A stretch of 63,353 nucleotides of DNA, the filler included, from Reclinomonas americana ATCC 50394 (lineage: Eukaryota), in the NCBI GenBank assembly GCA_048213135.1. It is 7 parts of 3 records of this genome, joined end to end, with 100 filler letters (N's around TTAATTAATTAA, not from the genome) between each part and the next. Parts side by side here need not be neighbours in the genome. Positions count along the whole stretch, not along the records: positions 1 to 6,494 come from PS015231.1; positions 6,595 to 13,762 come from PS015231.1; positions 13,863 to 32,405 come from PS015231.1; positions 32,506 to 40,999 come from PS015231.1; positions 41,100 to 45,078 come from PS015232.1; positions 45,179 to 57,459 come from PS015232.1; positions 57,560 to 63,353 come from PS015235.1. The stretch is one strand, 5' to 3'. Under the pieces are notes generated by a model. The model searched no databases. It was not told the DNA's origin and was given only the letters and a program-made list of their open reading frames with translations. The position numbers and the translations under genes are program-made. This document shows, piece after piece, positions 1,123 through 59,166 of this stretch. The first letter of the stretch is position 1. Each line of letters starts with the position of its first letter.

Positions 1123-2263
1123 TGGTATGAGACGCACGAGTTCACGTGGTTCGACATGATCCGCGACGGTGCCATCTACATGTTCTGGATGGACACGTGG
1201 TTCTACTGGACTCATCGCTTGTTGCAGTTGCGTCCTCCCTTTTCCGCAAGTGGCTTACAGTCTGTTACTCATTGTCCGCGGATAGCCTGCCGTTCTGGAT
1301 GAAGTATGTCCACTGCTACCACGTGAGTCCATGTTGCTTCCGCTCTCCTCATTGATGCCTCCTCTCATCTTTTGTTTTCTACGCAGCACGGTGCTTTACA
1401 TGCTCCCCACCGCATCCACGACAACTTCGAGCCGTCACTGACTTCTATTTTCTATTTTCCCTGCAGCGTTCATCAACCCGAGCGCCTTTGCGCAGGACGC
1501 CACCCACCCGTTCGAGACCATCCTGCAGGTGCGTCGACTTGCAGCGGTGTAGTTGTTGCCAAACAACAATGAGTGTGACCATTCTTTCATAGGGACCGAT
1601 GGGACACCACTTTGTGTTTGTTCTCTGGGTTCGTAGTAATCTGTGCACACCCTCCTCTCTCCCCGATACTCACCTCGTTGACGTACTTGCAGCACGTGCA
1701 CCCGCTGGTGGCGAGCTTCATTGGCTTCTGGACCTCGTTGTACGCCATTGCCGCCCACGACGGTCGCATTTTCGACCTCAACGACCACTGGTTGCGTCGT
1801 CACCGACAACCACCGCTTCCATCTCCTCTTGCTCACCTTCCTTTCCTCTCGTGCAGCAAGCACCACCACTTTGGCAACGTGAACTTTGGCCTCTACTGGG
1901 GCATGTTGCGTTGTCTGCAATCGTAAGCTGGCTGCTTTCCCCGTCTGATCGTTGTGCTGTCCGTGCAGCTGGGACTACATTTGCGGCACGCGCTTCAACC
2001 GCAACGACCCGCAGGTTTGCTCACGCCGCGGCCAGCTCATCGAGAAGACACAGTACCTCGATGTGTACACCTGGGAGCAGTTCTTTGCTTACGTTGAGCC
2101 ACAAACAATCACCTGCACGCCTCCCTTGCATTCGCGCTCATGTTCCCCGCAGACCAAGGAACACCCGATGGAGGCCGAGGACATCACGCCTGGCGAGACG
2201 TCAACCACCACCAAGGCCGAGAAGGCCGGCAACGTCACTCGCCGCCCCGCCGCCAAGAAGTGA
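1123..2263 (+). CDS. Sterol desaturase / fatty acid hydroxylase superfamily protein (ERG3-like), 3' part
   Basis: Exons 1123-1226, 1286-1322, 1387-1390, 1467-1528, 1593-1628, 1693-1790, 1857-1904, 1969-2092 and 2153-2263 splice in frame. They give His boxes HRLLH, HCYHH and HCKHH plus PSAFAQDATHPFE and NFGLYWGIWDYICGT. Confidence 0.9.
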
Positions 2264-2413
2264 GACGTGTGCACCCACGCTGCACGACTGTGCGTTCTGT
2301 CCTCTTTTTATCTCTCCCTTCCCTTCTCTTTCGCCCCTTTCCCCTTGCACAGTTGCTGCTTTCTGCAATCGTACAGCATTTTACGGTTGCACACCAAATG
2401 TACTCGACGAGGT

Positions 2414-5400: not shown

Positions 5401-8400
5401 GGGTATATATGAGGGGAAGTGGAGTGGGAAGGGAAGAAGGGAGAGGGTGAAAGGGAGAAGGGGTATGAGGTGGAAGTGGAGTGGGAAGGGAAGAAGGGAG
5501 AAGGTGAAAGAAGGAAAAGGTATGAGGGGAAAGGGTGATGAGGTGGAAGGTAAAGGAGAATGTGAAAGGGGAAGGGTAGATCGGGGTGCTAAGGAAGGCG
5601 AGAAACGGTGGCAAGTGGGACAAGGGAAGGAACAGCAGGTAATCTGCAACTGTTTCCTCCCGTTTCTTAATGTGTCTCTCTGGGTGCGTTGTGCTTCTCA
5701 CAAGTTCGCCACTGACTTGTGTGCAATGGCTTATCTGCTCTAAAAGCTTCACTCTGCCTCAATCTCTCTCGCCCTTTCTGCATACTCCTGTCTCCGCTCT
5801 ATCGCATTGGTCTCTGACCCACCACAACGGCATACCTCGCAGAGACAACACACGTAGCGCAGGTAGCTGGACCCACGTATCGAAACCAATCGAATAATCA
5901 TCACCAGCGGCGTGTGGTCCTGCATGCCCCAATACCAGGGAGTGCAGATGGGTGCAGGCCGGCAAGGCCGCGTGCGCCGGCAAGTCAGTGGACATGAAGG
6001 GACTCTCGGAAATTCCAGCTGGAAAGGGAAGGGATGGGTGAGCAGCAACAAGGAGCGCCACGCAGGGTGAGCGGAGCCACCTTTGAGAACGATTCGCCGC
6101 ACGGAGTGGGTGAAGGGGGCCACCAGCAGTCCCAAGTTGGTGCGCACTGGCAGGGACAGCTCGGAGAGGTTGCTTTGTTTAGGGGAAGGGGGATGGTAAG
6201 GAAAGGGAGGAGAGAGAGCCAAGAGAGTAGTGGAATGCGAAGGGTGAAGAGAGATGAAAGAGAAATGGTGAGAAAACATCTAGGGAGAGCGAGAGTGCAA
6301 GTTTCAGATCATCTGCAAGTAAGAGAGCGGCAGATAAGGGTAACAAAGAAAGGAGGACGGCTGGAGAGTTGAGTGAGCGTACGCGTTGGGAAGAGAGGGA
6401 GCCATGACAAGAAAAGCACTGTGGACGAGCAGCTTGTGGGGAATATGGGACGAAGGGGTTAGAGAGAGAAAGAGAGAGAGAGAGACAACAAGAANNNNNN
6501 NNNNNNNNNNNNNNNNNNNNNNNNNNNNNNNNNNNNNNTTAATTAATTAANNNNNNNNNNNNNNNNNNNNNNNNNNNNNNNNNNNNNNNNNNNNAAGCAA
6601 GTGGAGTCAGGATGCCGTGGGGAACGAAAGGAGGAGAGAGAGAAAGAGAGAGACAACAAGCATCACGTGAACTGACAGGAGAAAAATGCAAACTGGAGTC
6701 ACAGGCACGAAAGACAGGGAGGACGAAACAGGGAGACACTGCGAGTTGCAAGTGAACTGCAAAGAAGACGAAAATAATAATCGGGTGAGAGGAACAGCAG
6801 GAAGCAAGTGGAGACCGGATGCCGGGGAGAATAAAAGGAGGAGAGAGAGAGAGAGAGAAAGAGAGAGACTATCTTGTGATACGCACTTTTCCAGCATTTC
6901 GCAGAAACCAGTCGACACTTGCCACAGGTAACTAAAGTCTGCAAGCGACGAGGAGGTGAACTCTCAAAGACACGAACAAATCACCATTTTGGAGACGCAC
7001 CACTGAGTGACAGGAAGTGGCACACGAGGGTGGTGGCACGCGGTGGCAAGTCCGCCAGTGATCGACGCGTCGACGGACTGTGTCGGGTCAACGACAGCCG
7101 CCGTTGTGGAGGCACAGAGACATCCGCAGCCTGTCGGAGCGACGAGGATAAGAGTCAACGCATTTGCGCTCACACACGGCGTGTGATTCGCGACGCAACG
7201 GCAGAGGGCGTGTGCACCGAGCGACCGGACAACACCTGCAGTGCCATGAGCCACTGCGCGCGGAGGGCATTGTCTTCAATCACGAAATCCACTGTCCGCT
7301 TCGGCAGCACAATGGTGATGATGTGCGATGCTGTGTGTGGAAAAGTAAGTAGAACCGCGACATTCTATCTTTGAGCACAAACACAAACCCGGAAAGCATG
7401 TGCGCAGAGGCGACAACAGTCCCTGTTGCTGCACCTGCTGCACCTCACAAAACTGCAGTCGCCGATTCATGCGTCTCGCCGATGCACCCCACTGCAATGG
7501 TCCGCGAATTAGCGTTGGCAAGAGCGCGAAGCGTCCCCGACGAAGTAACACAAACCTGCAGGCATGAACGATCGGGCGACAAGCATAGCACGCGCCGGTG
7601 ATGCTTTCGACCGCGGCTGGCGTAGATGAGTTTGATGACGGTGGCCGGTTTCGATACCGCCACAATGGCGAGCTCGGCACGCTTATTGGCCACGCTCTCC
7701 AGGTGCGCGCGACATCGCTCGTCGCGGTCTTGTGCGTAGGCGGCGTCCTTGTAACAGCAAAGGGGGGNNNNNNNNNNNNNNNNNNNNNNNNNNNNNNNNN
7801 NNNNNNNNNNNNNNNNNNNNNNNNNNNNNNNNNNNNNNNNNNNNNNNNNNNNNNNNNNNNNNNNNNNNNNNNNNNNNNNNNNNNNNNNNNNNNNNNNNNN
7901 NNNNNNNNNNNNNNNNNNNNNNNNNNNNNNNNNNNNNNNNNNNNNNNNNNNNNNNNNNNNNNNNNNNNNNNNNNNNNNNNNNNNNNNNNNNNNNNNNNNN
8001 NNNNNNNNNNNNNNNNNNNNNNNNNNNNNNNNNNNNNNNNNNNNNNNNNNNNNNNNNNNNNNNNNNNNNNNNNNNNNNNNNNNNNNNNNNNNNNNNNNNN
8101 NNNNNNNNNNNNNNNNNNNNNNNNNNNNNNNNNNNNNNNNNNNNNNNNNNNNNNNNNNNTAAGCTGAAGTGAAACTGGGGAAGAGAAAGGACTGATACGC
8201 AGAAGGATAGGAGTGGGGAAAGCGAAGGAGGAAAGAGGAGAGAGGAGACTGGGGTTGACGGAAAATGAGAGCTTGCGTCGGGCCACCAAACCTCTGCTGC
8301 CCGCTGCTGCTCATGCGATCGCACGCGTTCCGACCACCGCAACGCATCAATCGCGCAATTCTCCGCCTCATGCTGCGCCACCAGCTCCGGAGCCTCCTCG

Positions 8401-9228
8401 TCCGCCAGCTCACGCACTCGTTGAATGGCACGCTGCGTTCGACCCGTTGTGAGCAAACGCAAGAGGTGGCGAGAACTAGCCAAGACGCAACGTTGATGGC
8501 CAGCAGCCATCCCTGCACCAAGTGACCCTTGTGCACGCGCAGTCGATGCACTCGACCAATGTCTCGCGCATGCCTCCACGCCGCGATAGCCGGGGTGCCA
8601 GACGCCGCGGCCGCAGCAGAGAGCGGGAACACGACTGCAGGAGGGAGAGAGGGAAGTGGGGAAAGGAATGAGAAGGCGCGATGATAACGAGAGACAGAGA
8701 GAGGAATGATAAGGAGAAGCGAAAGCCGACGCGGCGATGAATTACGACTGCGTGGAAAGTTATGGATATAGAATGAGATTAAGAGAGGGTGGGTGAATGA
8801 AAAAAGAAGGATACAAGCCACAGAAGACAACGGGAACACGACAGAAAAAGAGAGGAAATTCAAAAACCGCGGCAGATAACAAGAACATGTCATAGGCGAG
8901 AGGAGAAGAAGGGAACACGACTGTATGACAGAGAGAGAGAGAGAGAGAAGACATGAACAGGATAGGCCACAAGAGAACGGTACACGACATGAGAAAAGAG
9001 CGAAAGAAGGGGAGGAAATGACGAGGAAGTAATTGCCGAAACACAACCGCATGGCAAAGAGCGAGAGAGCGCGCGATACGGAGAGAGAGAGGGAGAGGAC
9101 ATAAAACAGGATAGGCCACGAGAGAACGGGTACACGAGTGCGTGAGAAAGAGAGGGAGAGAGAGGTTGAGGGAGTGAAGAGAAAAGAAAACAGCCGCAGC
9201 AGACGATCGGAAACAACGTTTACTGCAT

Positions 9229-9262
<34 letters not shown>

Positions 9263-9382
9263 GGGAAAGAGGACATGAACAGGATAGGCCACAAGAGAAT
9301 GGGTGCACGATCGCATGAGAAAGAGAGAGGGAGAGAGGGAAAGGGAATGACAAGGAAAGAATTGCCGGAACACAGCTGCATG

Positions 9383-9417
<35 letters not shown>

Positions 9418-9988
9418 GAGTATGCACAGGAAGGATAACAGCCACAGCAGACGAAGGAAGCAGGAGAGAGGAGAGGAATGCATGCAACATGAACAATTGA
9501 CTGGCGCCCGGAAGAACGATGCCACCCACTTGCAATAAGTGAAAGGGTCTTCAGCTCACCAATAACACCCGGAGACAACGGATCGACTTCTGCTCCACTT
9601 GCACCGCACAGATCCAGCTTATAATGCGCCTCCCTCATCTTATGATCAATCACACATATAAGATTGAGTGATCACACAATGCACAACTGTGTGTGCATGT
9701 GAGAGAGTTTGTGAGAGTGAGAGAGAGACTCACCTGTGCAGGCCACTTTGCATGATAGAAATACACAGAGAAGAACGCCATGACAGCGTATGAATGCATG
9801 TCTTCCGCCTCTTCTTCCTCAGTCATGACTGCTGCTGATTGCGCGACAACAACACCCTCTCCACTGTCACTTTCCGCACTGTCATGATGGCGATGATGAT
9901 GTTTCTTGTGTGTCACAGAGGAGGGAGGCTCCAAGTCCAACAGAGTCACACGAGAGCGCAGAGTGAGACACTCGGGAAGACATTGCAT
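2414..9988 (-). CDS. Multi-exon coiled-coil/PH + F-box + RNI-like leucine-rich repeat protein (start codon uncertain, 9988 or 9826; model crosses gaps)
   Basis: PH-like segment LIYASRGRKHHRRVLCLSPDRSCLQWG...IITIVLPKRTVDFVIEDNALRAQWLMALQ (~7230-7650). F-box-like LADLPPRATTLVCHFLSLSDFSYLWQVS (~6890-7070). LRRs such as LESLWLADNNI, LTELNLRGCPLDDAGV and LRHLDLTATGV. Stop at 2414-2416. Confidence 0.7.
6539..6550. other. Assembly linker TTAATTAATTAA embedded in N runs (also at 13807, 32450, 41044, 45123, 57504)
   Basis: The identical 12-mer, with stops in all six frames, is flanked by Ns at six places. This is a contig-joining artefact. Confidence 0.95.
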
Positions 9989-10470: not shown

Positions 10471-12986
10471 GGGAACTTCCACTCGTTGGGCATGCCCACG
10501 TGAGAGATACTGCAGTCAGTCAGTGNNNNNNNNNNNNNNNNNNNNNNNNNNNNNNNNNNNNNNNNNNNNNNNNNNNNNNNNNNNNNNNNNNNNNNNNNNN
10601 NNNNNNNNNNNNNNNNNNNNNNNNNNNNNNNNNNNNNNNNNNNNNNNNNNNNNNNNNAGAGGAGGAGAGGAGGAGAGGAGGAGAGGAGGAGAGGAGGAGA
10701 GGAGGAGAGGAGGAGAGGAGGAGAGGAGGAGAGGAGGAGAGGAGGAGAGGAGGAGAGAAGAGGAAAGGAAATGAGAAGAGAGCGAGAGGAAGAGAGGAGG
10801 AGAGAAGAAGGAAAGGAAGTGAGAAAAGAGCGAGAGGAAGAGAGGAGGAGGGGAGGACGGAAGGAGGAGAGGAGAAGGGAAGCGAACATAAGGAAACAGG
10901 GGAGAAGAGGAAAGAAGGAGAGGAGAAGGGAGGCGAAAAGAGCAAGATAAGAAAAGGGGAAGGGGGAGAAGCACGAGAAAATGATACAGCGGCGACGGGA
11001 GCAAGTGAGAATGAAAAGACGCAAAAGGAAGGACAACACCGCAAAGAGAGAAAGTCAGGGTTTTGTTGGTTGCATTGTGCAAGGTAGACGCAGGGCACGC
11101 AACGAGTCTTGCTCATGGCGTAGCTGGTGACCTTGGTGTCGATGCCGGCGTGGTCGCGGAAGCCAAAGGCGCCAATCGGCCACGTGCCGTTCTGCGAGAG
11201 ACGAGTGAGGGGCGGAAGAAGGCTAGTGCAGCTGAGAAGCAGCTACGATACCTTCGGGTTCAGATCCGAGCGGCAGGAGATGGCGTTCTCGCCAGTGAAG
11301 GGCGGATTGCAGCCGTCGCAGCGCGACAACGGATCGTTCTTGTAGTCGTTGTAGCGCATGAAACTGCGAGTGTGGCGGAGTGAATACGGAGCCCATTTCT
11401 ACCTCCCCTCCTGTCCCTCTCTCGACTTACCGCTTCATGGCCTCCATGTCGCCAATCTTCGAGTGATCGCGCTGGATGATCAGATTGCGCGCCGTCTTGT
11501 CGTACGAGAACCAGTTGCCGAACTTTTGCACCAGAGCCGGGCAGCCCGAGGCATCAAAAATGCTGCAAGAGGAGGAAAGGGAGTGAGGATAAGGAGAAGG
11601 GGAAGGGGAAGAGAGGAGAGAGGAGGGGAGAAGGAGAAGGGGAAAAGAGAGGAGAGGGGAGGGGAGAGGGAGAAGGGGAAAGAGAGGAGAGGGATCATGT
11701 GTGCTAGCGCGTGGGATGAAAAACAATTGAATGGCGGAGAGAAGAGAAGGGAGAGACTGAGAGGCGCGAGGGAGAGGAAGGGCAGGGAGGGGGTGGCAAG
11801 AGCGAGGTTGTGAATGGCGAGAAGAGCATTGTGGAAGGGCGCGATGATGTCGTGGGGACGGTGAGATGATCATTGTGAGAAGGGGAAAGAGAGGCGAGGG
11901 ATCATGTGTGCTAGCGCATGAGATGAGAGGCGGAGAGAAGAGAAGGGAGAGACTGAGAGGCGCGAGGGAGAGGAAGGGCACGGAGGGGTGCGAGAGAGAA
12001 GTTGCGAAGGGCGAGAAGAGCATTGTGGGGAAGGTGACAAGAGCATTGTGAAGAAGGCGAGAAGAAGACAAGAAACTAAGGACTCCACACCAGGAGGATT
12101 GACGCACTTCTTGAAGTAGGCAACGTTGAAGGAGCCGAAATAGGTCTGCTGCGCCAGCAGGCTGGTCATGTCTTGCGACTGCAGCGGGACACGCATGAGA
12201 TCACACAAGATGGACGTTGAGTACAGGGACACGTTTCACGGACCTCGACCATGCCAGGGATCTGCGGAGTACAGCGGATGAGTACTTTCCTAAGGTATTA
12301 CAGTTGAAGAATAGAACGCACCTGCTCGAGGAGCCAGAAGGTGTTCGGCTTCAGTGGCTGGCCGGGTGTGAACAGCTTGTAGTCGACCACTGTGTGGAAT
12401 TACATGAGCACGAAACGTGCACCACACATACCGTCTCTCTCTCTCTCTCTCTCTCTCCTGCTGTACCGTACACTCCGCCTTGGCCGTACAGCAGGAAGGG
12501 AGAGGAGGGAGGATAGGAAGTAAGAAGAGAGCAAGAGGAGGAGAGAAGGAGAGGAGGNNNNNNNNNNNNNNNNNNNNNNNNNNNNNNNNNNNNNNNNNNN
12601 NNNNNNNNNNNNNNNNNNNNNNNNNNNNNNNNNNNNNNNNNNNNNNNNNNNNNNNNNNNNNNNNNNNNNNNNNNNNNNNNNNNNNNNNNNNNNNNNNNNN
12701 NNNNNNNNNNNNNNNNNNNNNNNNNNNNNNNNNNNNNNNNNNNNNNNNNNNNNNNNNNNNNNNNNNNNNNNNNNNNNNNNNNNNNNNNNNNNNNNNNNNN
12801 NNNNNNNNNNNNNNNNNNNNNNNNNNNNNNNNNNNNNNNNNNNNNNNNNNNNNNNNNNNNNNNNNNNNNNNNNNNNNNNNNNNNNNNNNNTACGTACGTA
12901 CGTACGTACGTACGTACGTACGTACGTACGTACGTACGTACGTACGTACGTACGTACGTACGTACGTACGTACTACTACTACCTAC

Positions 12987-13076
<90 letters not shown>

Positions 13077-40925: not shown

Positions 40926-40958
<33 letters not shown>

Positions 40959-42477
40959 TCTCTTCTTCTTCTCTTCTCGTTACTTACTTCGTTACTTACN
41001 NNNNNNNNNNNNNNNNNNNNNNNNNNNNNNNNNNNNNNNNNNNTTAATTAATTAANNNNNNNNNNNNNNNNNNNNNNNNNNNNNNNNNNNNNNNNNNNNA
41101 GTCAATCAGGAGAGCGAGGGCGCGATAGAGAACGTATGGGAGGGAGAGAGAAGGAGAGAGGGAGAGAGACTAGATAGAGACGGAGCGTGTGTGTGAGAGA
41201 GAGAGCCAGACGGCCAGGCAAGGAGACAGCAAGATGACCTCGTCTCCTTCTCTGTTCCCTCTCACTGACAGTCTTTGAGCAATGCACACATCCGCCACTC
41301 ACAAAAACACGAAACTCTCTCTATCTCTCCCCATTTCTCTCACCCTCCTCCCCTCCTTACTCCCTCTCTCTCCACCAGCGCGCAACACCACGCCCAACAA
41401 ACAAACAAACAAACAAACATGCGCGCGAAAAACGAATTTGCACAAGACAACACACACACACAACGCAGAACAACAACAATGTCATCGTCACACGCCTTCT
41501 CTCTCACACGCACACTCGCCAAACAGAGAGAGAGACACACACACACAAAGACAACGTGCGCGCGTGTGTGAGATGGAAGACTTGCGAGCATGGCCAACCC
41601 ACACACTCTCTTCTTCTTCNNNNNNNNNNNNNNNNNNNNNNNNNNNNNNNNNNNNNNNNNNNNNNNNNNNNNNNNNNNNNNNNNNNNNNNNNNNNNNNNN
41701 NNNNNNNNNNNNNNNNNNNNNNNNNNNNNNNNNNNNNNNNNNNNNNNNNNNNNNNNNNNNNNNNNNNNNNNNNNNNNNNNNNNNNNNNNNNNNNNNNNNN
41801 NNNNNNNNNNNNNNNNNNNNNNNNNNNNNNNNNNNNNNNNNNNNNNNNNNNNNNNNNNNNNNNNNNNNNNNNNNNNNNNNNNNNNNNNNNNNNNNNNNNN
41901 NNNNNNNNNNNNNNNNNNNNNNNNNNNNNNNNNNNNNNNNNNNNNNNNNNNNNNNNNNNNNNNNNNNNNNNNNNNNNNNNNNNNNNNNNNNNNNNNNNNN
42001 NNNNNNNNNNNNNNNNNNNNNNNNNNNNNNNNNNNNNNNNNNNNNNNNNNNNNNNNNNNNNNNNNNNNNNNNNNNNNNNNNNNNNNNNNNNNNNNNNNNN
42101 NNNNNNNNNNNNNNNNNNNNNNNNNNNNNNNNNNNNNNNNNNNNNNNNNNNNNNNNNNNNNNNNNNNNNNNNNNNNNNNNNNNNNNNNNNNNNNNNNNNN
42201 NNNNNNNNNNNNNNNNNNNNNNNNNNNNNNNNNNNNNNNNNNNNNNNNNNNNNNNNNNNNNNNNNNNNNNNNNNNNNNNNNNNNNNNNNNNNNNNNNNNN
42301 NNNNNNNNNNNNNNNNNNNNNNNNNNNNNNNNNNNNNNNNNNNNNNNNNNNNNNNNNNNNNNNNNNNNNNNNNNNNNNNNNNNNNNNNNNNNNNNNNNNN
42401 NNNNNNNNNNNNNNNNNNNNNNNNNNNNNNNNNNNNNNNNNNNNNNNNNNNNNNNNNNNNCACACAACCAAACGAGC

Positions 42478-43531: not shown

Positions 43532-46500
43532 TTATTTGTCCTTCTTCTTCTTCTTCTTCTTGTCGCCATTCTGCGTGCGCAACAGAAACTTGTCAGCAAC
43601 CAACGCACACATCGTCAACGACGTACACACCCACACGCACGGCAACATGTTGAGAGAGAGATACAGATTGAAGTACAGCCAGAAGAAAACAAATAATCGC
43701 AAGCATCACAATGCACAACACACAAAAAAACAAGAGAAGAATTGAACACATAAGTACAAACAACAACTACATGCACGCTTCGATGCTTCCTCCACACACC
43801 CACAACATCGTAGACCAAGTGAACTCATGCACAAATAGAAGAAAAACAGAGACGACAAGAAAGAAACGCAAGTGACACAATGCGAAGACAACACACAAGA
43901 GTACATTGAACACAGAAACAAACAGCCTTACAGAGAACACATAATCATCAACGCAAGCACAACACAACAACACACACATATAAACATACGAAACACACAC
44001 GAGAGAAGACACATAAACACACGAACATAACAGAGACAAGAACATAAAAAGCACAACAACAACAACAACACACACATATAAACATACGAAACACACGAGA
44101 GAAGACACATAAGCACACGAACATAACAGAGACAAAAACACAAACAAGCACAACACAAAAACACACACATATAAACATACGAAACCCACACAAGACAAGA
44201 CACACAAACACACGAACATAACAGACAAAACACAAACAAGACTCACATAAGGCACACACCCTCGCCTTCCCTTCCCTTCTCCTTCCCCTTCTACCCCTTC
44301 CCCCCTCCACCCTTCCCCCCTCCACCCTTCCCCCCTCCACCCTTCCCCTTCTACCCCTTTCCCTTTCTCTTCCCCTCCCACGCACCGCTGCTGCTGGTAC
44401 CGCCTCCTCCTCCTCCTGCTCCACCTTCTTGCCCTTCTTCTTATCCTTCTTGCTCTTCTTCTTCTCCGGCTCGGCCTCCTTTGCCGCCTCCTCCTCCTCC
44501 TCCGGCTCCTCCTCGCGAGCACGCTTCTTGCTCTTCTTGTCCTTCTTGGACTTCTTCTCGCCAGAGGCCTTCATCTTGACGTCGCCGTCGTCCTCCTCGT
44601 CCTCGTCACCGAGCAAATCGCCAAACTCCGCCAGCGCCTTCTCGTACGCCATGTGCATCACGTCGGCATTGCGGCGTGGTGCCTGGCCCGTCTCGAAAAA
44701 CTGCAATCGCTCCTCCACCTGCTCCTTCAGCAGCTCGCCAAAGACGCGCGATGGCTTGTCGCTGAACGAGTCGATGCGGGCGGCGATCGAGCACTTGTTG
44801 GCGAGGAAGCGCGACATGCGGCCCTTGTCCTTGGCCGAGGCGCGGCCAATGAACGAGGCGTGGAAGAGCAGGCCGTACTTGGGGGTGTTGGAGCGGGTCT
44901 TCAGGGCGCTGCACACAAAAGGGAAAGGGAGGGGTGAATAAAAGGGAAAGGGGAGAAGGGGAAGGAGGGGAAAGGGAGAAGGGGGAGAAGGGGGATAAAG
45001 GGAGAAGGGGGTAAAGGGAGAAGGGGGATAAAGGGAGAAGGGGGATAAAGGGAGAAGGAGGATAAAGGGAGAAGGGAGNNNNNNNNNNNNNNNNNNNNNN
45101 NNNNNNNNNNNNNNNNNNNNNNTTAATTAATTAANNNNNNNNNNNNNNNNNNNNNNNNNNNNNNNNNNNNNNNNNNNNAAGGAGAGGGATAAGGAGAGAG
45201 ATAAGGAGAGGAGAGTAAGGAGAAGGGGGTAAAGGGAGAAGGGGGATAAAGGGAGAAGGGGGATAAAGGGAGAAGGGGGATAAAGGGAGAAGGGGGATAA
45301 AGGGAGAAGGGGGATAAAGGGAGAAGGGGGATAAGGGAAGGAGGCAATCTAATCTCGTCTGAGACACACACCGGAAGAGAGCCTTCTCAGCACCGAGAAT
45401 CTGCACAGTGGAGGCCGGGTACTTGGCCAGGTTGGTGAGGCTGCCAGCGTGCTGGATGAGGCGGGCGGCCACCTGCGAAGAGGGGATGGTTGAGTGAAAC
45501 AGAAGACTGAAATTAAAATCTATTCTCATTGCTCTCGCTCTGTTCCAACCAAGTCTCAGTCGCTGACTGGTTGGTAAATCTTGCCACGACTCATTGCGCT
45601 TGTGCAGCCACTTTGCTGCTCTCTCACTCTCTGAAATCCATTCCCCATTAGCGTGTCTGTTCTTTCTCACCTCGACAATCCGTCCAACGTCACACTCCTA
45701 TTCTCTCGCCTTCCACTTTCCCCTCACTCCAGGCTCCAGCATTCCTCACTGTCTCAAAATCCACCTCATTCCTCACGAACTCCTTCTCACTCTCTCACAT
45801 CTTCTTTCCTTTCCCAATCACAAACCTGCTCGCCAATAATCGCGGCAAGGTTCGGCGCCACAGCGTTCATCTTGGTGACGAGGTAGCTGTGCAGGTCCTT
45901 GCGGTACTTGGCCAGGTTGATGACCTTCTCCGCGAATCGCTCAATGTTGACCATGTCGATCTCGCCGAGGTCGGCGCCTGTGTGCGATGAAAGGAGAAGG
46001 TAAGCACGTGGAGAAGAAGAGGGGAGAGTTCAACGATCTTTGACCGCTGCGTGTGCAGTCGCTGTCTCCGCCATTAACCCTCAACCGTTGTATGCGTGCA
46101 ATCGCTGTCTCTCCACCCTCAACCCTTGACCGCTGTGCGTGCAACCACTGTTTCTCCACCCTTAACCCTTGACCGCTGTGCGTGCAACCGCTGTCTCTCC
46201 TCGACCCTTGATCGGTGTGTGCGTGCAATCAGTGTCTCTCTCCACCCCTAACCATCGACCACTGCGTGTGCAATCGCTGCCTCTCCACCCTAAACCCTTG
46301 ACCACTGCGTGTGTAATCGCTGTCTCCCTCTTCCCTGTGCCATTCTACCCTTTCCCCTTCCCCCATTTCCCACTCACCCATGGACTTTTGTGCCGCCTCA
46401 AACACACGGCGTGCCTGATCCGCGTCCATCGTGATCTCCTCGAGGCCGGCGAGTGACTCCTCCGACAGCGTGCTGCGTCGCAACGAATCAGCCACGATGA

Positions 46501-52600: not shown

Positions 52601-55160
52601 TGCCCTTGTTCTGCCCATTGCTCTGCCCTTGCTCTGCCCTTGCTCTGCCCATGGCTCTGTCCTTGCTCTTCCCTTGCTCTGCCCTTGCTCTGCCCTTGCT
52701 CTGCCCTTGCTCTGCCCTTGCTCTGCCCTTGCTCTGCCCCTGCTCTGCCCCTGCTCTGCCCTTGCTCTGCCCTTGCTCTGCCCTTGCTCTGCCCTTGCTC
52801 TGCTCTTGCTCTGCCCTTGCTCTGCCCTTGCTCTGCCCATGGCTCTGCCCTTGCTCTGTCCATGGCTCTGTCCTTGCTCTTCCCTTGCTCTGCCCTTGCT
52901 CTGCCCCTGCTCTGCCCCTGCTCTGCCCTTGCTCTGCCCTTGCTCTGCCCTTGCTCTGCCCTTGCTCTGCCCTTGCTCTGCCCTTGCTCTGCCCTTGCTC
53001 TGTCCTTGCTCTGTCCTTGCTCTGCCCATGGCTCTGCTCATTGCTCTGCCCTTGCTCTGTCCTTGCTCTGCCCTTGTTCTGCCCATGGCTCTGTCCTTGC
53101 TCTGCTCCTTGCTCTGCCGCTTGCTCTGCCTCCAACTCTGCCCTTGCTCTGCCCCTTGCTCTCCCCTTCCCCTTCCCCCACCTCACCCCTTCCCTTCTCC
53201 CTCACCCTTCCCCCCTCCACTTCCCCCTTCCCCTTCCCCCCTTTCCTCTCTCCCCCCCTTCCTTCCCCTTTTTCCCTTTTNNNNNNNNNNNNNNNNNNNN
53301 NNNNNNNNNNNNNNNNNNNNNNNNNNNNNNNNNNNNNNNNNNNNNNNNNNNNNNNNNNNNNNNNNNNNNNNNNNNNNNNNNNNNNNNNNNNNNNNNNNNN
53401 NNNNNNNNNNNNNNNNNNNNNNNNNNNNNNNNNNNNNNNNNNNNNNNNNNNNNNNNNNNNNNNNNNNNNNNNNNNNNNNNNNNNNNNNNNNNNNNNNNNN
53501 NNNNNNNNNNNNNNNNNNNNNNNNNNNNNNNNNNNNNNNNNNNNNNNNNNNNNNNNNNNNNNNNNNNNNNNNNNNNNNNNNNNNNNNNNNNNNNNNNNNN
53601 NNNNNNNNNNNNNNNNNNNNNNNNNNNNNNNNNNNNNNNNNNNNNNNNNNNNNNNNNNNNNNNNNNNNNNNNNNNNNNNNNNNNNNNNNNNNNNNNNNNN
53701 NNNNNNNNNNNNNNNNNNNNNNNNNNNNNNNNNNNNNNNNNNNNNNNNNNNNNNNNNNNNNNNNNNNNNNNGCAGATCCTGCACCCTCGACACATGGTCC
53801 CGCGAGCAAGTCCGCTGCATGGAGGTCGGCGGCAACGCCCGCGCCCGCGCCTTTTTCCGCGCCCACGGCATTGACGGCATGAAGGCCGAGCGTCTCTACT
53901 CGTCGGCCCCCGCCGCGCAGTACCGCGCGCAGATCAAGGCGCTGTGCGCGCAGGCCGCGCAGGCCGAGCAGCAGCACAACGGCAACGGTAGCGCCTCCTC
54001 TGNNNNNNNNNNNNNNNNNNNNNNNNNNNNNNNNNNNNNNNNNNNNNNNNNNNNNNNNNNNNNNNNNNNNNNNNNNNNNNNNNNNNNNNNNNNNNNNNNN
54101 NNNNNNNNNNNNNNNNNNNNNNNNNNNNNNNNNNNNNNNNNNNNNNNNNNNNNNNNNNNNNNNNNNNNNNNNNNNNNNNNNNNNNNNNNNNNNNNNNNNN
54201 NNNNNNNNNNNNNNNNNNNNNNNNNNNNNNNNNNNNNNNNNNNNNNNNNNNNNNNNNNNNNNNNNNNNNNNNNNNNNNNNCCACGGCGGCGGCGGCCACC
54301 ACCACGACCACCACTGCTGCCTCGAGTGGATCGCTCGGACCCTCTTCTGTGGAGCCGCAGTTGCGTTTTCACAAAGGATGTTGACGAGTGGAAGGCAGGA
54401 GATTGACTAACGCGGGGCTGTCGCACAGTTTGGACGACGTGGAGGGCGATTTTGATGTCAAGCGCGAGGGATTGGATGTGCACGCGCTGATTGCCGATTT
54501 GGATCGCAGTCCGTCGGCGCCGTCGCGTGTGGCGTCGAGTTGCGTGAGGGGGAGGGAGTGGTGATGGGAAAGAGAGTGGAAGTGGAAACCGTGAGAGAGA
54601 TTGTTCAGAAGGGCCGATCTCTTTGCAGTGCTCCTTTGGGGAGTTGAAGCTCTGAAGTGAGAGTTTAATGCGAAAAACTGAATGCTCTTTTTTCTATTGA
54701 TGCTGCTTGCTTGTGACGCTTGTCATGAGATTGTTCTTTTCCCGTGTTTGTTTCGCTTCTACCGCAACCTTCTCTGTTTGTCTCTTACCCTCATCGTTCT
54801 CCCTCACTTATCTTGCCTCGCTTGTCTCCATTCTCTCGTCCCCCCCCATTCTCGTCCCTTGCTTCGCTCGCTTCTCTTCAATCCTTTTCTCTCATTTCTC
54901 GTCAGTCCTCTCGTTCCTCTCTCTCTCTCCTCGTTCCTCTCTCTCTCTTCTCGTTCCAACTGTGACTTCTCATTGTGTGTCTCTTTCTCTCCTTTTAACA
55001 TTCTCTCTCTTCCTATCGTCTCTCCACTGCTCCTCTCTTCCCCCCCCTTACGATTTTGTTGCCGATTCATGTCTTTTCCGAGACTGTTATTGCGTCTCGC
55101 TCGACAGTTGTTTCCGTCCGTTGCATCTCATTCCTCTTATTCTTGCGCTCTCTATTCTTC

Positions 55161-55206
<46 letters not shown>

Positions 55207-57072
55207 TCTCTTTTCTCCCACTTTCTCTTCAATCTTCTCTGTCTCTTCTCTCTTTTCTCTCTCTTCTCTTCACCACGCTCTCTTCTCCCTCTTCTCTCTT
55301 CTCGTTCTCTTCATTCACTTCTGTGTGCCTTTATTTGTGCCTCCCCTTTTCTAAACGCCCTTGTCCTTCTACTACCCCGCAGACATCGGCACCCCCACCA
55401 GCGCCTCCGCGAGAGCAGCCGCCCCCTGCTCCTCGTCGTCCTCGTCCTCTGCCAAGCGCCCACTGTCCAGCGCTGGCGGTCGCCGCAGTCTCGGCGCGAA
55501 GAAGGTGGAGGCCGGTACGGTCGCCCCGGCACCGTCACCTCCACCGCAGGCGCAGCGCGTCTCGTCGCCCGTGTCTCCGGCCGCGGAGAGCAGCAGCCCG
55601 GTGCCCAGTGGCGGGAATGTGCACTGTTGAGTTTGCGGTAATAGGGGAAGGGATGGGAGGGGAAAGGTCGTCGTTCAAGACTCGCCGTCTTACTACCTGT
55701 GTTTCATGGTCGTATCAACACTCTTTAAGAGAAAAGAGGGAGAGATAGAAGTGGTTCAGTTCACATCAGCTGCACTTTCATCGCTTGCCTTCCCCCGCAT
55801 TCGCCTGGTCGATCTGGCGTCGATTTTTCATCGCTAATCCTTCCTCTCCCTCGATTAGATTACCGCTCCTTCTTTCTGTTCTCGCAATTCTTCTTTTTGT
55901 TCAGTCTCTTCGACTTCTGTCTCTCTTCTTGCTGTCCACCCTCTGCCTCTCCTTTTTCTTATTCTCTCCTTCATGTTCTCCTTTCCTCCGTTCTCATCCC
56001 TTTATTCGTTCTCCCTTCCGCCTTCCCCCTTTCTCCTTCCTTTTCCCCCTGTTCCTTCCCCTTCTCCTCCCCTTCTCCTTCCCCTTCTCCTCCCCNNNNN
56101 NNNNNNNNNNNNNNNNNNNNNNNNNNNNNNNNNNNNNNNNNNNNNNNNNNNNNNNNNNNNNNNNNNNNNNNNNNNNNNNNNNNNNNNNNNNNNNNNNNNN
56201 NNNNNNNNNNNNNNNNNNNNNNNNNNNNNNNNNNNNNNNNNNNNNNNNNNNNNNNNNNNNNNNNNNNNNNNNNNNNNNNNNNNNNNNNNNNNNNNNNNNN
56301 NNNNNNNNNNNNNNNNNNNNNNNNNNNNNNNNNNNNNNNNNNNNNNNNNNNNNNNNNNNNNNNNNNNNNNNNNNNNNNNNNNNNNNNNNNNNNNNNNNNN
56401 NNNNNNNNNNNNNNNNNNNNNNNNNNNNNNNNNNNNNNNNNNNNNNNNNNNNNNNNNNNNNNNNNNNNNNNNNNNNNNNNNNNNNNNNNCCCCTTCTCCT
56501 CCCCCTTCTCCTCCCCTTCCACTTCTCCTTCCACTTCTCCTTCCACTTCTCCTTCCGCCTTCTCCCTTCTTTCTTCCCCTTCTTCTTCCCTTCTTCCTCC
56601 CCTTCTCCTCCCTTCTTCCTCCCCCTTCTCCTCCCCCTTCCCTTCCCCTTCTCCTTCCCCTTCTCCTTTTCCATTTCTCACCCCTTTCCCTATTATCGCA
56701 GTGAACAAATTCGCCTCCGCCAAGGCCATCTCCTCGGCCGACCTGCGCCGCGCGGAGGAAGAGGACGATCCGGAGGTCAAGGAGCGCATCGGTCGCTTCT
56801 CGGCCGCCCGCGGCATCTCCAGCGACATGTTCTTTGATCGTCAGGCCGACGCCTCACCGTCAGGTGCTGGTGGTGGTGGTGGTGGTGGCGGTGGATCGTC
56901 GCAGAGTGGTGAGTGGGTGGAGTAAGAGGAGGGGATGATTGATTGATGAAGTCGTCCTTACGCGTTTGCGACAGCCACCGATGCGGCCGCTGAGTTCGCC
57001 TCCAAGTTGGCGCTGCAGGCCAAGGATGACATGCGGCGTGTGGCGGGTTTCCTGAAGGAGGGTGGCGCGAAG
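49646..57072 (+). CDS. ADP-ribosylation factor GTPase-activating protein, ArfGAP2/3 (Glo3/AGD8-10) type; last exon not seen
   Basis: [53 protein letters not shown]...MEVGGNARA. Glo3 motifs [11 protein letters not shown] and [14 protein letters not shown], then [16 protein letters not shown]. Confidence 0.93.
52015..53160. repeat. 11-bp minisatellite (CCTTGCTCTGC)n in an ArfGAP intron
   Basis: Direct reading. It is the source of the [11 protein letters not shown] / [13 protein letters not shown]s. Confidence 0.95.
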
Positions 57073-57844
57073 GTTGGTGGTGTGGGAGAGGGGAAGGGAG
57101 ATGATGGGAAAGGGGGACGGGGAGGGAAAGGGAGAGGGTGCAGAGGGCGAGAGAGCGCGAAGGGACGGCAAGGACAGCGTGACCTTGATGCAGAGGATGC
57201 AGTCGATGACTGTAGAGAGGAGGAATAGAGAGTGAGGAAGAGTGAGAGTGAGAGCGAGAGAGAGAGTGGGAAGGGGAAATATGAACAAATGCAGAAAACG
57301 CAGTGTCGTGATGACAGGGTGGGTGAGTGAGAGAGAGAGAGAGAGAGAAGAAAAAAAGGAACAAGGAGTATCATAGGAGTGCCAGCAGAGAAAGTAAGGT
57401 ATGCGAGAGAGAGAGAGAGGAGGGAAGGAAAGAGAGACAAGAGTAAGTAACTAGTAGGGNNNNNNNNNNNNNNNNNNNNNNNNNNNNNNNNNNNNNNNNN
57501 NNNTTAATTAATTAANNNNNNNNNNNNNNNNNNNNNNNNNNNNNNNNNNNNNNNNNNNNTCTCTCTTCTCTTCTTCTTCTTCTTCTCTCTTCTCTCTCTC
57601 TCTCTCTACTCTTCTCTCTCTCCTCTACTCTCTTCTTCCTTTCTCTTCTCTTCTTCTTTCTTTCTTCTCTCTCTTCTCTCTTCTTTCTCTCTCTCTCTCG
57701 CTCTCTCTCTCCTCTGTCTGTCTGTCTGTCTGTCCTTCTTTCCTCCTCCTCCTCCTCCATCATCTCCTCCTGCCCCCTCACACTTTGCCTTCCCCCGCCC
57801 CTCCCCTCCTCCTTCTAATTCTTCTCCTTTCCCTTCGCCACCAG

Positions 57845-59166
57845 GACGCACTCCTCGCACGGCGACCTCCTGGCCCTTGCCGACTCCATGCAGGAGGCAC
57901 ACCTGCTCCACCTCAAGGATCTCTGGTCGCACGTCGCCCAGCGCACCGCCCCCAAAGCCGGCCCGCAGTACGGACTCGTACCTCTCGCGCGCCTCACTCC
58001 CCTCGACTTTGCCGACACGGTAACCCGACTCGCGCAGATCAAGTTGCGTACCCGCGCGCACTAGAGTGACTGCGTTGTGGTCAGCCAACACGTTATCGTC
58101 ACGGTTGCAGATTCATTTTCAATCACTCGGGTGACATTGGGAGGGAGGTGCTGCAGTGGCCGACCGTGCAGCTGCTCCTGCAGTGCGGAGTGATGCACAA
58201 ACAGACGTTGCGTTGGCGGTGGTGTACGAGTGACTCGCCCCGATGCCGCTCGAGGCCGGTTTTCTTGCACAACGATTCTCTTGACTCGCTTTCGTCCATG
58301 TTCATGTTCAGTCTTTCTTCCTTTCCTTGTCCATTCTCTCCCCATGCCACAATCCACCTCCACCAATTCACCCTTGCCCGTTTCCCGTTTCCCAACACCT
58401 CACCTCATCTTCATGTCCTCGGTGTGCAAGTTCTTTCTCGTTACCTTGACTGCAGTCGCCTTTCTCACATTCTACCACCTTTCCATCCTCCACCTCCAAC
58501 TCTTCTCTGTCTCTCTTTCCCTCTCCTCTCGCCTCTCAACATATTCTCGCGTAACTATTCTTGATTCGATACAAACTGGCGTGCTTGTGTTTTTTGACCA
58601 CTTTGTCTCTTTCGCCAGTCGTCCATTTTTCAGCCATTCTCTCTCATCTTTCACATTTNNNNNNNNNNNNNNNNNNNNNNNNNNNNNNNNNNNNNNNNNN
58701 NNNNNNNNNNNNNNNNNNNNNNNNNNNNNNNNNNNNNNNNNNNNNNNNNNNNNNNNNNNNNNNNNNNNNNNNNNNNNNNNNNNNNNNNNNNNNNNNNNNN
58801 NNNNNNNNNNNNNNNNNNNNNNNNNNNNNNNNNNNNNNNNNNNNNNNNNNNNNNNNNNNNNNNNNNNNNNNNNNNNNNNNNNNNNNNNNNNNNNNNNNNN
58901 NNNNNNNNNNNNNNNNNNNNNNNNNNNNNNNNNNNNNNNNNNNNNNNNNNNNNNNNNNNNNNNNNNNNNNNNNNNNNNNNNNNNNNNNNNNNNNNNNNNN
59001 NNNNNNNNTACCATCGCAGCTGTCTGTCGGCCAACGCGCCGCCCTCGCCGCCCGCACCCACCTCGGAATGGGAGGCGTCGGCTCTCTGCAGCGCGTGTTG
59101 CACGACGACGTACTGCCAATGTCGCCGCCGTCCTTGCGATTATCGTCAGACGAGAGAGCAATGTAG
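57845..59166 (+). CDS. 3' exons of an unidentified protein
   Basis: Exon 57845-58042 reads THSSHGDLLALADSMQEAHLLHLKDLWSHV...DFADTVTRLAQIK, 58111-58206 reads FIFNHSGDIGREVLQWPTVQLLLQCGVMHKQT, and a terminal exon reads LSVGQRAALAARTHLG...DERAM*. Family not recognised. Confidence 0.55.

What the first reader, a model, noticed from the sequence alone, without database searches (positions are those of the whole stretch)
1227..58213. A large class of introns uses a one-nucleotide-shifted donor, GTTGCGT (and GTTGAG), correlated with lack of exonic -1G
Seen in sequence: the ordinary donors here are GTGCGT/GTGAGT. Reading-frame continuity places donors reading GTTGCGT at 1227, 1791, 1905, 29684, 54360, 54539, 58043 and 58207 (+) and at 2557, 8491, 11103, 13204, 13500, 13643 and 15578 (-). 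GTTGAG donors occur at 2093 and 55626, and GTTCCGT at 2708. They span six unrelated genes and by my rough hand count approach a fifth of the visible introns. Only one (1791) follows an exonic G, whereas most unshifted donors do. Shared sequence stops at +7. At 1227 the conserved HRLLH box fixes cleavage at the GT. A few sites (2093, 29684, 11103, 55626) are less tightly constrained. Established knowledge: rare mammalian GTTAAGT donors are read by U1 snRNA in a +1-shifted register (Roca and Krainer 2009). Inference: this lineage has made the shifted or bulged register a major donor class, or carries a variant U1/U6 snRNA.
Basis: partly seen in the sequence, partly recalled or inferred. Interest (0 to 1): 0.8.

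Follow-up and report, generated by a model that had tools for sequence, protein, structure and literature searches.

The report
Intron donors shifted by one base
In this piece of a eukaryotic genome about a third of the best-supported introns begin with GTTGCGT instead of the usual GTGCGT, which looks like the normal recognition motif read one base later, and this form is used almost only where the preceding exon does not end in G.

Summary
The core observation holds. GTTGCGT occurs 19 times against 5.3 expected, and all 15 claimed coordinates are exact. Donor-agnostic spliced alignment to homologues places cleavage exactly before GTTGCGT at 7 sites. These are 1227, 1791 and 1905 in a sterol desaturase gene and 15578, 13643, 13500 and 13204 in a phospholipase-B-like gene. 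That is 7 of 18 homology-placed introns.

A local intron-support test passes 12 of 17 GTTGCGT sites, against 29 of 297 control-motif sites, 0 of 19 GTTGCG[ACG] and 2 of 15 GT[ACG]GCGT.

Among 35 supported donors, those after an exonic G are 18 ordinary and 1 shifted. Those after a non-G are 12 shifted and 4 ordinary (p=4e-5). Shifted donors are mostly phase 2 (10 of 13), which fits coding constraint on the last exon base.

The GTTGAG and GTTCCGT additions are not supported, and 55626 is probably not a donor.

The shifted-register reading fits the sequence statistics. However, a canonical U1 5' end is predicted to bind these sites weakly. No U1 or U6 gene, whole genome or RNA run was available. 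I rate it a new variant of a known kind.

The parts
1227..1285 (+). Shifted-type intron (gca|GTTGCGT ... ATAG|c), 59 nt, phase 2, in the sterol desaturase gene. The split codon CA|C gives the His of HRLLH.
   Evidence: Chosen in 4 of 4 donor-agnostic spliced alignments.
1791..1856 (+). Shifted-type intron (ctg|GTTGCGT), 66 nt, phase 2. It is the only one that follows an exonic G. It gives HCKHH.
   Evidence: Chosen in 3 of 4 spliced alignments; the P0153 alignment took a GC donor at 1815 instead. Passes the local test.
1905..1968 (+). Shifted-type intron (cat|GTTGCGT), 64 nt, phase 2.
   Evidence: Chosen in 4 of 4 spliced alignments. Passes the local test.
15506..15578 (-). Shifted-type intron (ctc|GTTGCGT), 73 nt, phase 2, in the phospholipase-B-like gene.
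   Evidence: Chosen by the profile alignment. It scores 6.0 bits above the GC donor 3 nt downstream.
13582..13643 (-). Shifted-type intron (cac|GTTGCGT), 62 nt, phase 2.
   Evidence: Scores 174.5 bits against 172.1 for the donor at 13655. The first profile alignment had picked 13655. Passes the local test.
13337..13500 (-). Shifted-type intron (cat|GTTGCGT), 164 nt, phase 2.
   Evidence: Chosen by the profile alignment. It scores 1.9 bits above the GC alternative.
13145..13204 (-). Shifted-type intron (ctc|GTTGCGT), 60 nt, phase 2, open in frame.
   Evidence: The alignment to mouse PLBD2 (3fbx_A) skips exactly these 20 codons. It scores 7.1 bits above the GC alternative and 21.5 bits above retention.
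29684..29761 (+). Probable shifted-type intron (gtc|GTTGCGT), 78 nt by the unrestricted local scan, phase 0, open in frame.
   Evidence: In one search the 78-nt acceptor ranks first but has a negative acceptor score (-1.6). One search passed the site with the 198-nt acceptor instead. The trained gene model predicts the 78-nt intron. No homology evidence.
54360..54428 (+). Probable shifted-type intron (gca|GTTGCGT), 69 nt, phase 2.
   Evidence: Passes the local test only just (25.6 against a threshold of 25).
58043..58110 (+). Probable shifted-type intron (caa|GTTGCGT), 68 nt, phase 2.
   Evidence: Passes the local test. Predicted by all three ab initio runs, including the donor-agnostic ones.
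8433..8491 (-). Probable shifted-type intron (aac|GTTGCGT), 59 nt, phase 0.
   Evidence: Passes the local test and is predicted by all three ab initio runs. Downstream coding evidence is weak.
7131..7199 (-).
   Evidence: Passes the local test. Predicted in 2 of 3 ab initio runs.
23490..23556 (-). It lies next to an N run.
   Evidence: Predicted in 3 of 3 ab initio runs. Too close to the N run for the local test.
1323..1386 (+). Ordinary intron (cac|GTGAGT), 64 nt, phase 0. Comparison set.
   Evidence: 4 of 4 alignments.
1529..1592 (+). Ordinary intron (cag|GTGCGT), 64 nt, phase 0. Comparison set.
   Evidence: 4 of 4 alignments.
1629..1692 (+). Ordinary-register intron with T at +3 (tgg|GTTCGT), 64 nt, phase 0. 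It shows that +3=T alone does not define the shifted class.
   Evidence: 4 of 4 alignments.
12262..12321 (-). Ordinary intron (cag|GTGCGT), 60 nt, phase 0. Comparison set.
55626..55632 (+). Claimed GTTGAGT donor. Probably not a donor.
   Evidence: The open frame 54682-55641 ends 13 nt later and purine-rich sequence follows. No acceptor or coding support within 45-200 nt.

Best explanation
These are ordinary U2-type GT-AG introns. Their extended donor signal sits one base further into the intron than usual. The ordinary donor here, counted from the last exon base, is G|GTGCGT. The second class is H|GTTGCGT.

Read as a seven-base word, the two differ at one position only (G-G-TGCGT against G-T-TGCGT). 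The difference is that the first G is exonic in one class and is the first intron base in the other.

The most likely reading has two steps. First, the early recognition factor, U1 snRNA by analogy with the human '+1 shifted register', binds this word in one and the same register. Second, cleavage is set at the first GU inside it. The intron then supplies the G that the exon would otherwise have to supply.

This explains why the shifted form is used where the coding sequence does not allow a G as the last exon base, above all in phase 2, where that base is a second codon position.

Shown here: the motif, the exact cleavage position at 7 sites, base-specificity at +3 and +7, the partition by the -1 base, and the phase bias.
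For: 1. **Enrichment.** 19 sites against 5.3 expected.
2. **Donor-agnostic models.** In gene models that require only GT, GTTGCGT is the commonest 7-mer at predicted donors. It appears at 8 of 65 donors, against 0.30 expected from independent positions, and at 6 of 77 against 0.24.
3. **Cleavage placed by homology at 7 sites**. The in-frame alternative GTT|GCGT, a GC donor, scores lower by 6.0 bits at 15578 and 7.1 bits at 13204. At 1227 and 1791 the aligner had GC donors available at a higher fixed penalty and still chose the GT donor. It did so in 4 of 4 alignments at 1227 and 3 of 4 at 1791.
4. **Local intron-support test**. GTTGCGT passes at 12 of 17 sites and pooled controls at 29 of 297 (p=2e-8).
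5. **Base specificity.** GTTGCG[ACG] passes at 0 of 19 and GT[ACG]GCGT at 2 of 15. So T is needed at +7 and T at +3, as a one-base shift of GTGCGT predicts. In the usual register +7 would face U1 U2, which would favour A rather than U. That last point rests on established knowledge of the U1 5' end.
6. **Partition by the -1 base.** Of 19 supported donors after G, 18 are ordinary and 1 is shifted. Of 16 after a non-G, 12 are shifted and 4 ordinary (p=4.2e-5).
7. **Phase.** Phase 2 holds 10 of 13 shifted donors against 4 of 22 others (p=0.0011). G is at 0.19 of second codon positions and 0.35 of third positions in the two modelled genes.
8. **Strand.** 17 of 19 sites lie on the strand of the gene predicted around them.
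9. **No shared intron body.** The longest match among 13 such introns is 12 nt. The 7-mer is therefore a signal, not a repeat family.
Against: - There is no RNA evidence at all. No run was listed.
- The sample is one 63-kb window, with 35 supported donors from about a dozen genes. 11 of the 13 shifted ones rest on, or overlap with, models that I built myself.
- With the canonical U1 11-mer (sequence as printed in PMC4856993), nearest-neighbour duplex energies on the shifted sites are -2.6 to +0.5 kcal/mol on 18 of the 19 sites. The exception is 54539, at -5.2 on the GUGAGG 5 nt downstream. The shifted register is the optimum at only 1 of 19 sites (18158). Ordinary donors with -1G give -5.0 to -8.0.
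- By that energy model the shifted form is no better than a plain H|GUGCGU donor (-1.4 and -2.8). Canonical U1 pairing alone therefore does not explain why the shifted form is preferred or so strictly conserved.
- The depletion of -1G below background is not itself significant (p=0.03-0.08).
- Four to six of the 19 sites may be chance occurrences, since 5.3 are expected.
Confidence: 0.5

Rival explanations
1. A dedicated or co-evolved snRNA reads the class. Either the organism's U1 5' end differs from the canonical one, or a second U1 (or U6) variant is complementary to GUUGCGU.
For: - Canonical U1 is predicted to bind these sites weakly (mean -0.65 kcal/mol), yet the 7-mer is strictly conserved.
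- Among all 33 single-base changes of the 11-mer, U5G gives the best mean on the shifted sites and also improves ordinary ones (-5.53 and -12.06). C8A favours shifted over ordinary sites (-3.76 against -2.36).
- Co-evolved U1 5' ends are reported for Entamoeba (ACAAAC with GUUUGU) and Mastigamoeba (ACGUAC with GUACGU) (bioRxiv 10.1101/2022.06.08.495308, passages read).
Against: - The same preprint reports standard U1 sequences in two lineages that prefer C at +4, Thecamonas trahens and the Mamiellales.
- No snRNA gene lies in the window and no genome is held, so nothing here tests this.
- Nearest-neighbour energies ignore pseudouridines and U1 proteins.
Confidence: 0.2
2. A bulged register. 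U1 pairs normally with +1G and +2U, one U at +2/+3 bulges out, and pairing resumes at +4. This is the human 'bulge +2/+3' register.
For: It yields the same downstream pairs as GUGCGU. The register is validated in human cells (PMC4856993, passages read: 68 predicted human sites, 54 after curation).
Against: - A bulge keeps exon position -1 opposite U1 C9, so the strong -1G preference of ordinary donors should persist. It does not: 1 of 13 against 18 of 22.
- A bulged base need not be U, yet GT[ACG]GCGT is at the control rate (2 of 15).
Confidence: 0.15
3. The +3 to +7 word is read mainly after U1, or by a protein. For example, U6 ACAGAGA or U5/Prp8 tolerates one extra base. U1 pairing would then be largely irrelevant to the class.
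For: - +5G and +6U of ordinary donors are read by both U1 and U6 (established knowledge). Any shifted class must therefore also be accommodated at the U6 stage.
- Predicted U1 energies are weak.
Against: It does not by itself explain why the class replaces ordinary donors precisely when -1 is not G. Position -1 is a U1 C9 contact in the canonical model.
Confidence: 0.1
4. Mis-modelled boundaries or chance. The real donors lie elsewhere, for example a GC donor 3 nt downstream (GTT|GCGT) or another nearby GT, and the motif is a by-product.
For: - The GC alternative keeps the frame. Homology cannot separate it at 13643 (0.3 bits) and hardly at 13500 (1.9 bits).
- About 5 of the 19 sites are expected by chance.
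- Six listed sites remain unresolved.
Against: - The GC alternative loses 6.0 bits at 15578 and 7.1 bits at 13204.
- It is not chosen at 1227, 1791 or 1905.
- The strict need for T at +3 and +7, and 8 observed against 0.30 expected among donor-agnostic predictions, are not chance.
Confidence: 0.05

Closest known systems
Human '+1 shifted register' 5' splice sites (Roca and Krainer 2009, as described in Tan et al. 2016, PMC4856993; I read passages of the latter only, the 2009 paper is not held)
   Same: Cleavage is at a GU followed by U at +3. The rest of the donor word matches the consensus one base late. All U1 pairs are thought to move by one position while cleavage stays at the GU.
   Different: In humans this is a rarity. 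All validated noncanonical registers together make up 1.5% of 201,541 5' splice sites. Here the class is 7 of 18 homology-placed introns and 13 of 35 supported donors. It is built on GCGU rather than AAGU, and it shows a near-complementary rule with the last exon base. No U1 experiment exists for this organism.
Human 'bulge +2/+3' register (Roca et al. 2012; figures taken from Tan et al. 2016)
   Same: An extra U follows GU and is followed by the normal +3 to +6 word.
   Different: The bulge register keeps the exonic -1G contact. The class here lacks the -1G preference and needs T specifically as the extra base.
Co-evolved U1 5' ends in Entamoeba and Mastigamoeba (bioRxiv 10.1101/2022.06.08.495308; passages read)
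   Same: A lineage-wide change of the donor word, with a possible matching change in U1.
   Different: Those lineages have one transformed consensus in the usual register. Here two words coexist in the same genes, offset by one base. Whether U1 is changed is unknown.
Lineages preferring C at +4 with a standard U1 (Thecamonas trahens; Mamiellales with GYGCGY donors; same preprint)
   Same: The ordinary donor here, GTGCGT, is of this type.
   Different: The passages I read do not mention a second, shifted class in those lineages. I could not tell which organism the window comes from.

Membership tests
U2-type GT-AG spliceosomal intron | GT at the 5' end and AG at the 3' end, and removal restores the reading frame and the homologous protein. 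| tested here: met
   7 sites are placed by spliced alignment to homologues that allowed only GT or GC donors with AG acceptors. HMM scores are and the PDB alignment.
U2-type GT-AG spliceosomal intron | Pyrimidine-rich 3' end with a YAG acceptor. | tested here: met
   The acceptor matrix built from 45 short predicted introns has the consensus ...CCCTCCGCAG. The shifted-type introns end in GCAG, ACAG, TCAG or ATAG.
+1 shifted-register 5' splice site | Positions +3 to +7 equal positions +2 to +6 of the organism's ordinary consensus. | tested here: met
   GTTGCGT against GTGCGT. Both need their last T: GTTGCG[ACG] passes at 0 of 19 and GTGCG[ACG] at 14 of 126, which is the control rate.
+1 shifted-register 5' splice site | No dependence on an exonic -1G, because +1G takes its place opposite U1 C9. 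| tested here: met
   -1G at 1 of 13 shifted donors against 18 of 22 others.
+1 shifted-register 5' splice site | U1 snRNA shown to pair in the shifted register, by mutation and suppressor U1 experiments. | not testable with these tools
   This needs experiments. The energy model with canonical U1 finds the shifted register as optimum at only 1 of 19 sites.
Bulge +2/+3 register | Canonical pairing of -1, +1 and +2 is kept, and any single bulged base is tolerated. | tested here: not met
   The -1G preference is lost. GT[ACG]GCGT is at the control rate, 2 of 15. This is indirect, statistical evidence only.
U12-type (minor) intron | Donor word RTATCCTT. | tested here: not met
   The donor is GTTGCGT. 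The U12 consensus is recalled from knowledge and was not taken from a call.
Introner or transposon-derived intron family | Intron bodies share sequence. | tested here: not met
   After removal of the 7-mer, the longest match among 13 introns is 12 nt.
GC-AG intron | Cleavage before GC (here GTT|GCGT, same frame). | tested here: inconclusive
   Rejected at 13204 (-7.1 bits) and 15578 (-6.0 bits), and not chosen at 1227, 1791 or 1905. Not separable at 13643 (-0.3) or 13500 (-1.9).

The most novel reading that the evidence does not exclude
This lineage runs a two-register donor code as a routine part of gene structure. One recognition word, G-(G/U)-UGCGU, is bound in a fixed register, and the spliceosome cuts at the first GU inside it. 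Introns can therefore sit after any exon base. The shifted form frees the last exon base, mostly second codon positions, from the otherwise near-obligatory G. This may be helped by a U1 whose 5' end differs from the canonical one at position 5 or 8.
Probability: 0.4. Interest if true: 0.75.

Novelty: new variant of a known kind. Interest (0 to 1): 0.65.

Why it matters
Shifted and bulged U1 registers are known as rare exceptions in human genes, about 1.5% of donors for all validated kinds together.

A genome in which a shifted word serves a sixth to a third of introns would be different. If the choice between the two words also follows the last exon base, register flexibility would be a regular, selectable part of splice-site design. 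It would also give a natural system for asking how the cleavage site is fixed independently of U1 pairing.

There is a practical side as well. Gene finders trained on a single donor matrix will misplace these donors. My own single-model runs did so at 13204.

Tried and rejected
- **Whole genome.** None is held for this window.
- **RNA evidence.** No RNA holder was listed by the look-up of sequencing runs, so read laying could not be used.
- **snRNA genes in the window.** None at Rfam gathering thresholds. At E<=1 there are only low-complexity microRNA-like hits.
- **Earlier findings.** None for this genome or for these words.
- **Homologue search with one 45-aa phospholipase-B exon.** Blank.
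- **WD40 gene search.** It gave only generic WD40 proteins at 27-36% identity, which are of no use for the 18158 junction.
- **Pfam and PDB on unspliced pieces of the desaturase gene.** No hits.
- **Plain k-mer enrichment.** It is dominated by simple repeats.
- **Donor-acceptor co-occurrence without coding information.** Too weak: GTTGCGT 9 of 19 against a baseline of 0.18, and GTGAGT below baseline.
- **My first ab initio gene finder.** It drifted into low-complexity pseudo-genes. The second masks them, but it still misplaces some donors, for example 13194 instead of 13204. I therefore use its output only as a donor-agnostic enrichment test.
- **Intron sliding.** I considered that a regular phase-0 donor with +1G changed to T could produce the class. 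I rejected it because it needs a simultaneous one-base move of the acceptor. The phase bias is explained more simply by coding constraint on the last exon base.
- **Both boundaries moved by +1 (TT...GN).** This would put Gln in place of the His of HRLLH at 1227. That follows from reading the sequence, since the aligner allowed only GT or GC donors.
- **Literature.** Searches by motif, by GTGCGT donors, by shifted or bulged registers, and by Thecamonas or protist splice sites listed no report of such a class. I read listings only, apart from the two papers cited. Roca and Krainer 2009 and Roca et al. 2012 are not held, so their numbers come from Tan et al. 2016. I opened no supplements, and they might bear on per-species donor logos.
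Full report
**What the window is**

The window is eukaryotic nuclear DNA of about 50% G+C. It has many N runs and six 'N44-TTAATTAATTAA-N44' linkers. No whole genome is held, no RNA run was listed, and no Rfam family reaches threshold. Everything below therefore rests on the 63 kb itself and on protein homologues.

**The motif**

GTTGCGT occurs 19 times on both strands against 5.32 +/- 2.28 expected, and none of 100 shuffles reaches 19. Four further sites on the minus strand (4445, 7199, 18158, 23556) were not listed. 17 of the 19 lie on the strand of the gene that my models predict around them.

**Exact cleavage, tested by homology**

I wrote a protein-profile-to-DNA spliced aligner. It allows any GT donor (and GC at a higher penalty) with any AG acceptor, and it uses no other donor information.

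*Phospholipase-B-like gene (minus strand, about 15600-11100; Pfam PF04916).* I used a profile of 48 full-length homologues, taken from the 150 listed of 484 hits.
- The aligner places introns at 15578-15506, 13500-13337 and 13204-13145, all starting GTTGCGT.
- It also places eight others: two GTGCGT and one each of GTACGT, GTCCGT, GTAAGT, GTATCG, GTTCGC and GTTCAA. The last of these is a donor at 13655, 12 nt upstream of the claimed 13643.
- An HMM of the same homologues scores the model with 13643 at 174.5 bits and the model with 13655 at 172.1.
- The two long introns (885 and 545 nt) show no jump in profile position, so they hide no exon.
- An independent check comes from phmmer against PDB. 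It aligns the unspliced frame to mouse PLBD2 (3fbx_A) as residues 47-86 with 275-315 and 108-129 with 317-338. This skips exactly the 20 codons of the 13204 intron.

*Sterol desaturase gene (plus strand).* The three homologues found carry PF04116, and one is named sterol desaturase of Capsaspora. I ran four alignments, one with a profile of the three and one with each alone.
- All four give introns at 1227-1285, 1323-1386, 1391-1466, 1529-1592, 1629-1692 and 1905-1968.
- Three of the four give 1791-1856.
- The product reads ...WTHRLLH..., ...HCYHH... and ...HCKHH....

*The in-frame alternative.* Frame continuity alone cannot exclude cleavage three bases later at a GC (GTT|GCGT). Homology argues against it at 13204 (-7.1 bits) and 15578 (-6.0 bits), and weakly at 13500 (-1.9). 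It says nothing at 13643 (-0.3). The aligner did not choose it at 1227, 1791 or 1905.

Together, 7 of the 18 introns placed by homology in these two genes start GTTGCGT.

**Is the motif a donor signal in general?**

Three approaches agree.

1. *Donor-agnostic gene models.* An ab initio model that knows only 'GT' at donors puts GTTGCGT at 8 of 65 predicted donors, and at 7 of 71 and 6 of 77 after retraining everything except the donor model. It is the commonest 7-mer in each run. From independent positional frequencies 0.30 and 0.24 would be expected. These models are noisy and misplace some donors.

2. *A local test applied alike to any motif.* It asks for an acceptor score of at least 0 at 45-200 nt, coding log-odds of at least 5 on both sides, and a total of at least 25.
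   - GTTGCGT passes at 12 of 17 testable sites.
   - GTGCGT passes at 13 of 60. Four of those are one tandem (GTGC)n site.
   - Seven control motifs pass at 29 of 297 sites.
   - GTTGCG[ACG] passes at 0 of 19 and GT[ACG]GCGT at 2 of 15.

   So the T at +3 and the T at +7 are both needed, just as the T at +6 is needed in GTGCGT (GTGCG[ACG] passes at 14 of 126).

3. *No shared intron body.* After removal of the 7-mer the longest match among 13 such introns is 12 nt. This is not a repeat family.

**The rule with the last exon base**

- In the homology set, -1 is G at 1 of 7 shifted donors and at 9 of 11 others (p=0.013).
- In the local-test set the figures are 1 of 12 against 13 of 15 (p=7e-5). 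Before this count I dropped the four entries of the tandem site 39517-39529.
- In the union of both sets (35 donors), donors after G are 18 ordinary and 1 shifted. Donors after a non-G are 12 shifted and 4 ordinary (p=4.2e-5).
- The shifted class does not clearly avoid G. 1 of 19 against a background of 0.20-0.25 gives p=0.08-0.03. What it lacks is the strong G preference of the ordinary class.
- T at +3 alone does not define the class. G|GTTCGT (1629) and G|GTTCGC (15406) are ordinary-register donors that follow G.

**Phase**

All 7 homology-placed shifted donors are in phase 2, against 3 of 11 others (p=0.004). In the union the figures are 10 of 13 against 4 of 22 (p=0.0011). By the upstream coding frame, the 19 sites split 11, 4 and 4 for phases 2, 0 and 1 (the frame at 11103 comes).

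The simplest explanation is coding constraint. In phase 2 the last exon base is a second codon position, where G is 0.19 in the two modelled genes. In phase 0 it is a third position, where G is 0.35 and C is 0.50. All four phase-0 shifted sites follow C, in codons AAC, GCC, AAC and GTC.

**Mechanism**

Written from the last exon base, the two donor words are G-G-TGCGT and G-T-TGCGT. A reader that binds this word in one register, with cleavage at the first GU, explains four things at once: the T-specificity, the +7 T, the loss of the exonic G preference, and the phase bias. This is the logic of the human '+1 shifted register', which is distinct from the 'bulge +2/+3' register (PMC4856993, passages read). 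A bulge should keep the -1G preference and tolerate other bulged bases, and neither is seen here.

There is an important caveat. With the canonical U1 11-mer, ViennaRNA duplex energies are -5.0 to -8.0 kcal/mol for ten ordinary donors with -1G. For 18 of the 19 GTTGCGT sites they are only +0.5 to -2.6. The remaining site, 54539, reaches -5.2 on the GUGAGG that lies 5 nt downstream. The shifted register is the optimum at one site only. Ordinary donors without -1G are equally weak (-1.4 and -2.8).

Canonical pairing alone therefore does not explain the preference for the shifted word. Among single-base variants of the 11-mer, G at position 5 improves both classes (-5.5 and -12.1), and A at position 8 favours the shifted class (-3.8 against -2.4). 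These are predictions, not findings.

A preprint reports co-evolved U1 5' ends in Entamoeba and Mastigamoeba. It also reports standard U1 in two lineages that prefer C at +4. Which case applies here is unknown.

**The other claims**

- GTT[AG]AGT passes the local test at 0 of 9 sites.
- 2093 (GTTGAGC) heads a 60-nt, in-frame, open stretch in the unconserved C-terminal tail. It cannot be decided.
- 55626 lies 13 nt before the stop of its open frame and is followed by purine-rich spacer, so it is probably not a donor.
- 2708, 2557, 58207, 54539 and 11103 remain unresolved.

**Novelty**

Five literature searches listed no report of such a class. In humans all validated noncanonical registers together are 1.5% of donors. 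I rate this a new variant of a known kind. It still has to be confirmed by RNA junctions and by the organism's U1 and U6 sequences.

Noticed in passing
window 1387-1390 (+): A 4-nt microexon (CACG) lies in the sterol desaturase gene, between introns 1323-1386 and 1391-1466. It supplies the second His of HCYHH and is chosen in 4 of 4 spliced alignments.
   Followed up: partly
window 6495-6594, 13763-13862, 32406-32505, 41000-41099, 45079-45178, 57460-57559: There are six artificial-looking linkers of the form N44-TTAATTAATTAA-N44. The phospholipase-B-like gene continues in order and orientation across the one at 13807.
   Followed up: partly
window 1227-1968 (+): Intron lengths are very uniform. 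The seven desaturase introns are 59-76 nt, and most short phospholipase-B introns are 60-74 nt. Two introns of 545 and 885 nt in the same gene hide no exon.
   Followed up: partly
window 39517-39534 (+): A tandem (GTGC)n sits at a donor and offers four GTGCGT donors 4 nt apart. Each passes the local test in a different phase.
   Followed up: no
window 54539-54549 (+): The GTTGCGT here is followed 5 nt later by GTGAGG. This is the best canonical U1 match at this site (-5.2 kcal/mol), so the real donor may be the ordinary one.
   Followed up: no
window 12892-12974: A TACG/GTAC-type tandem repeat next to an N run gives spurious sub-threshold microRNA matches on both strands.
   Followed up: no
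window 266, 34283, 5198, 7388, 46533 (predicted donors): Several predicted donors read G|GTTTCGT, G|GTTTTGT or G|GTTTGT, all following an exonic G. They come from ab initio models only. They may be a further donor flavour or may be mispredictions.
   Followed up: no
window 18073-18158 (-): A GTTGCGT lies exactly at the end of the last WD40 exon and is followed by purine-rich sequence and a TTGCAG about 86 nt on. Whether it is used as a donor could not be decided.
   Followed up: partly
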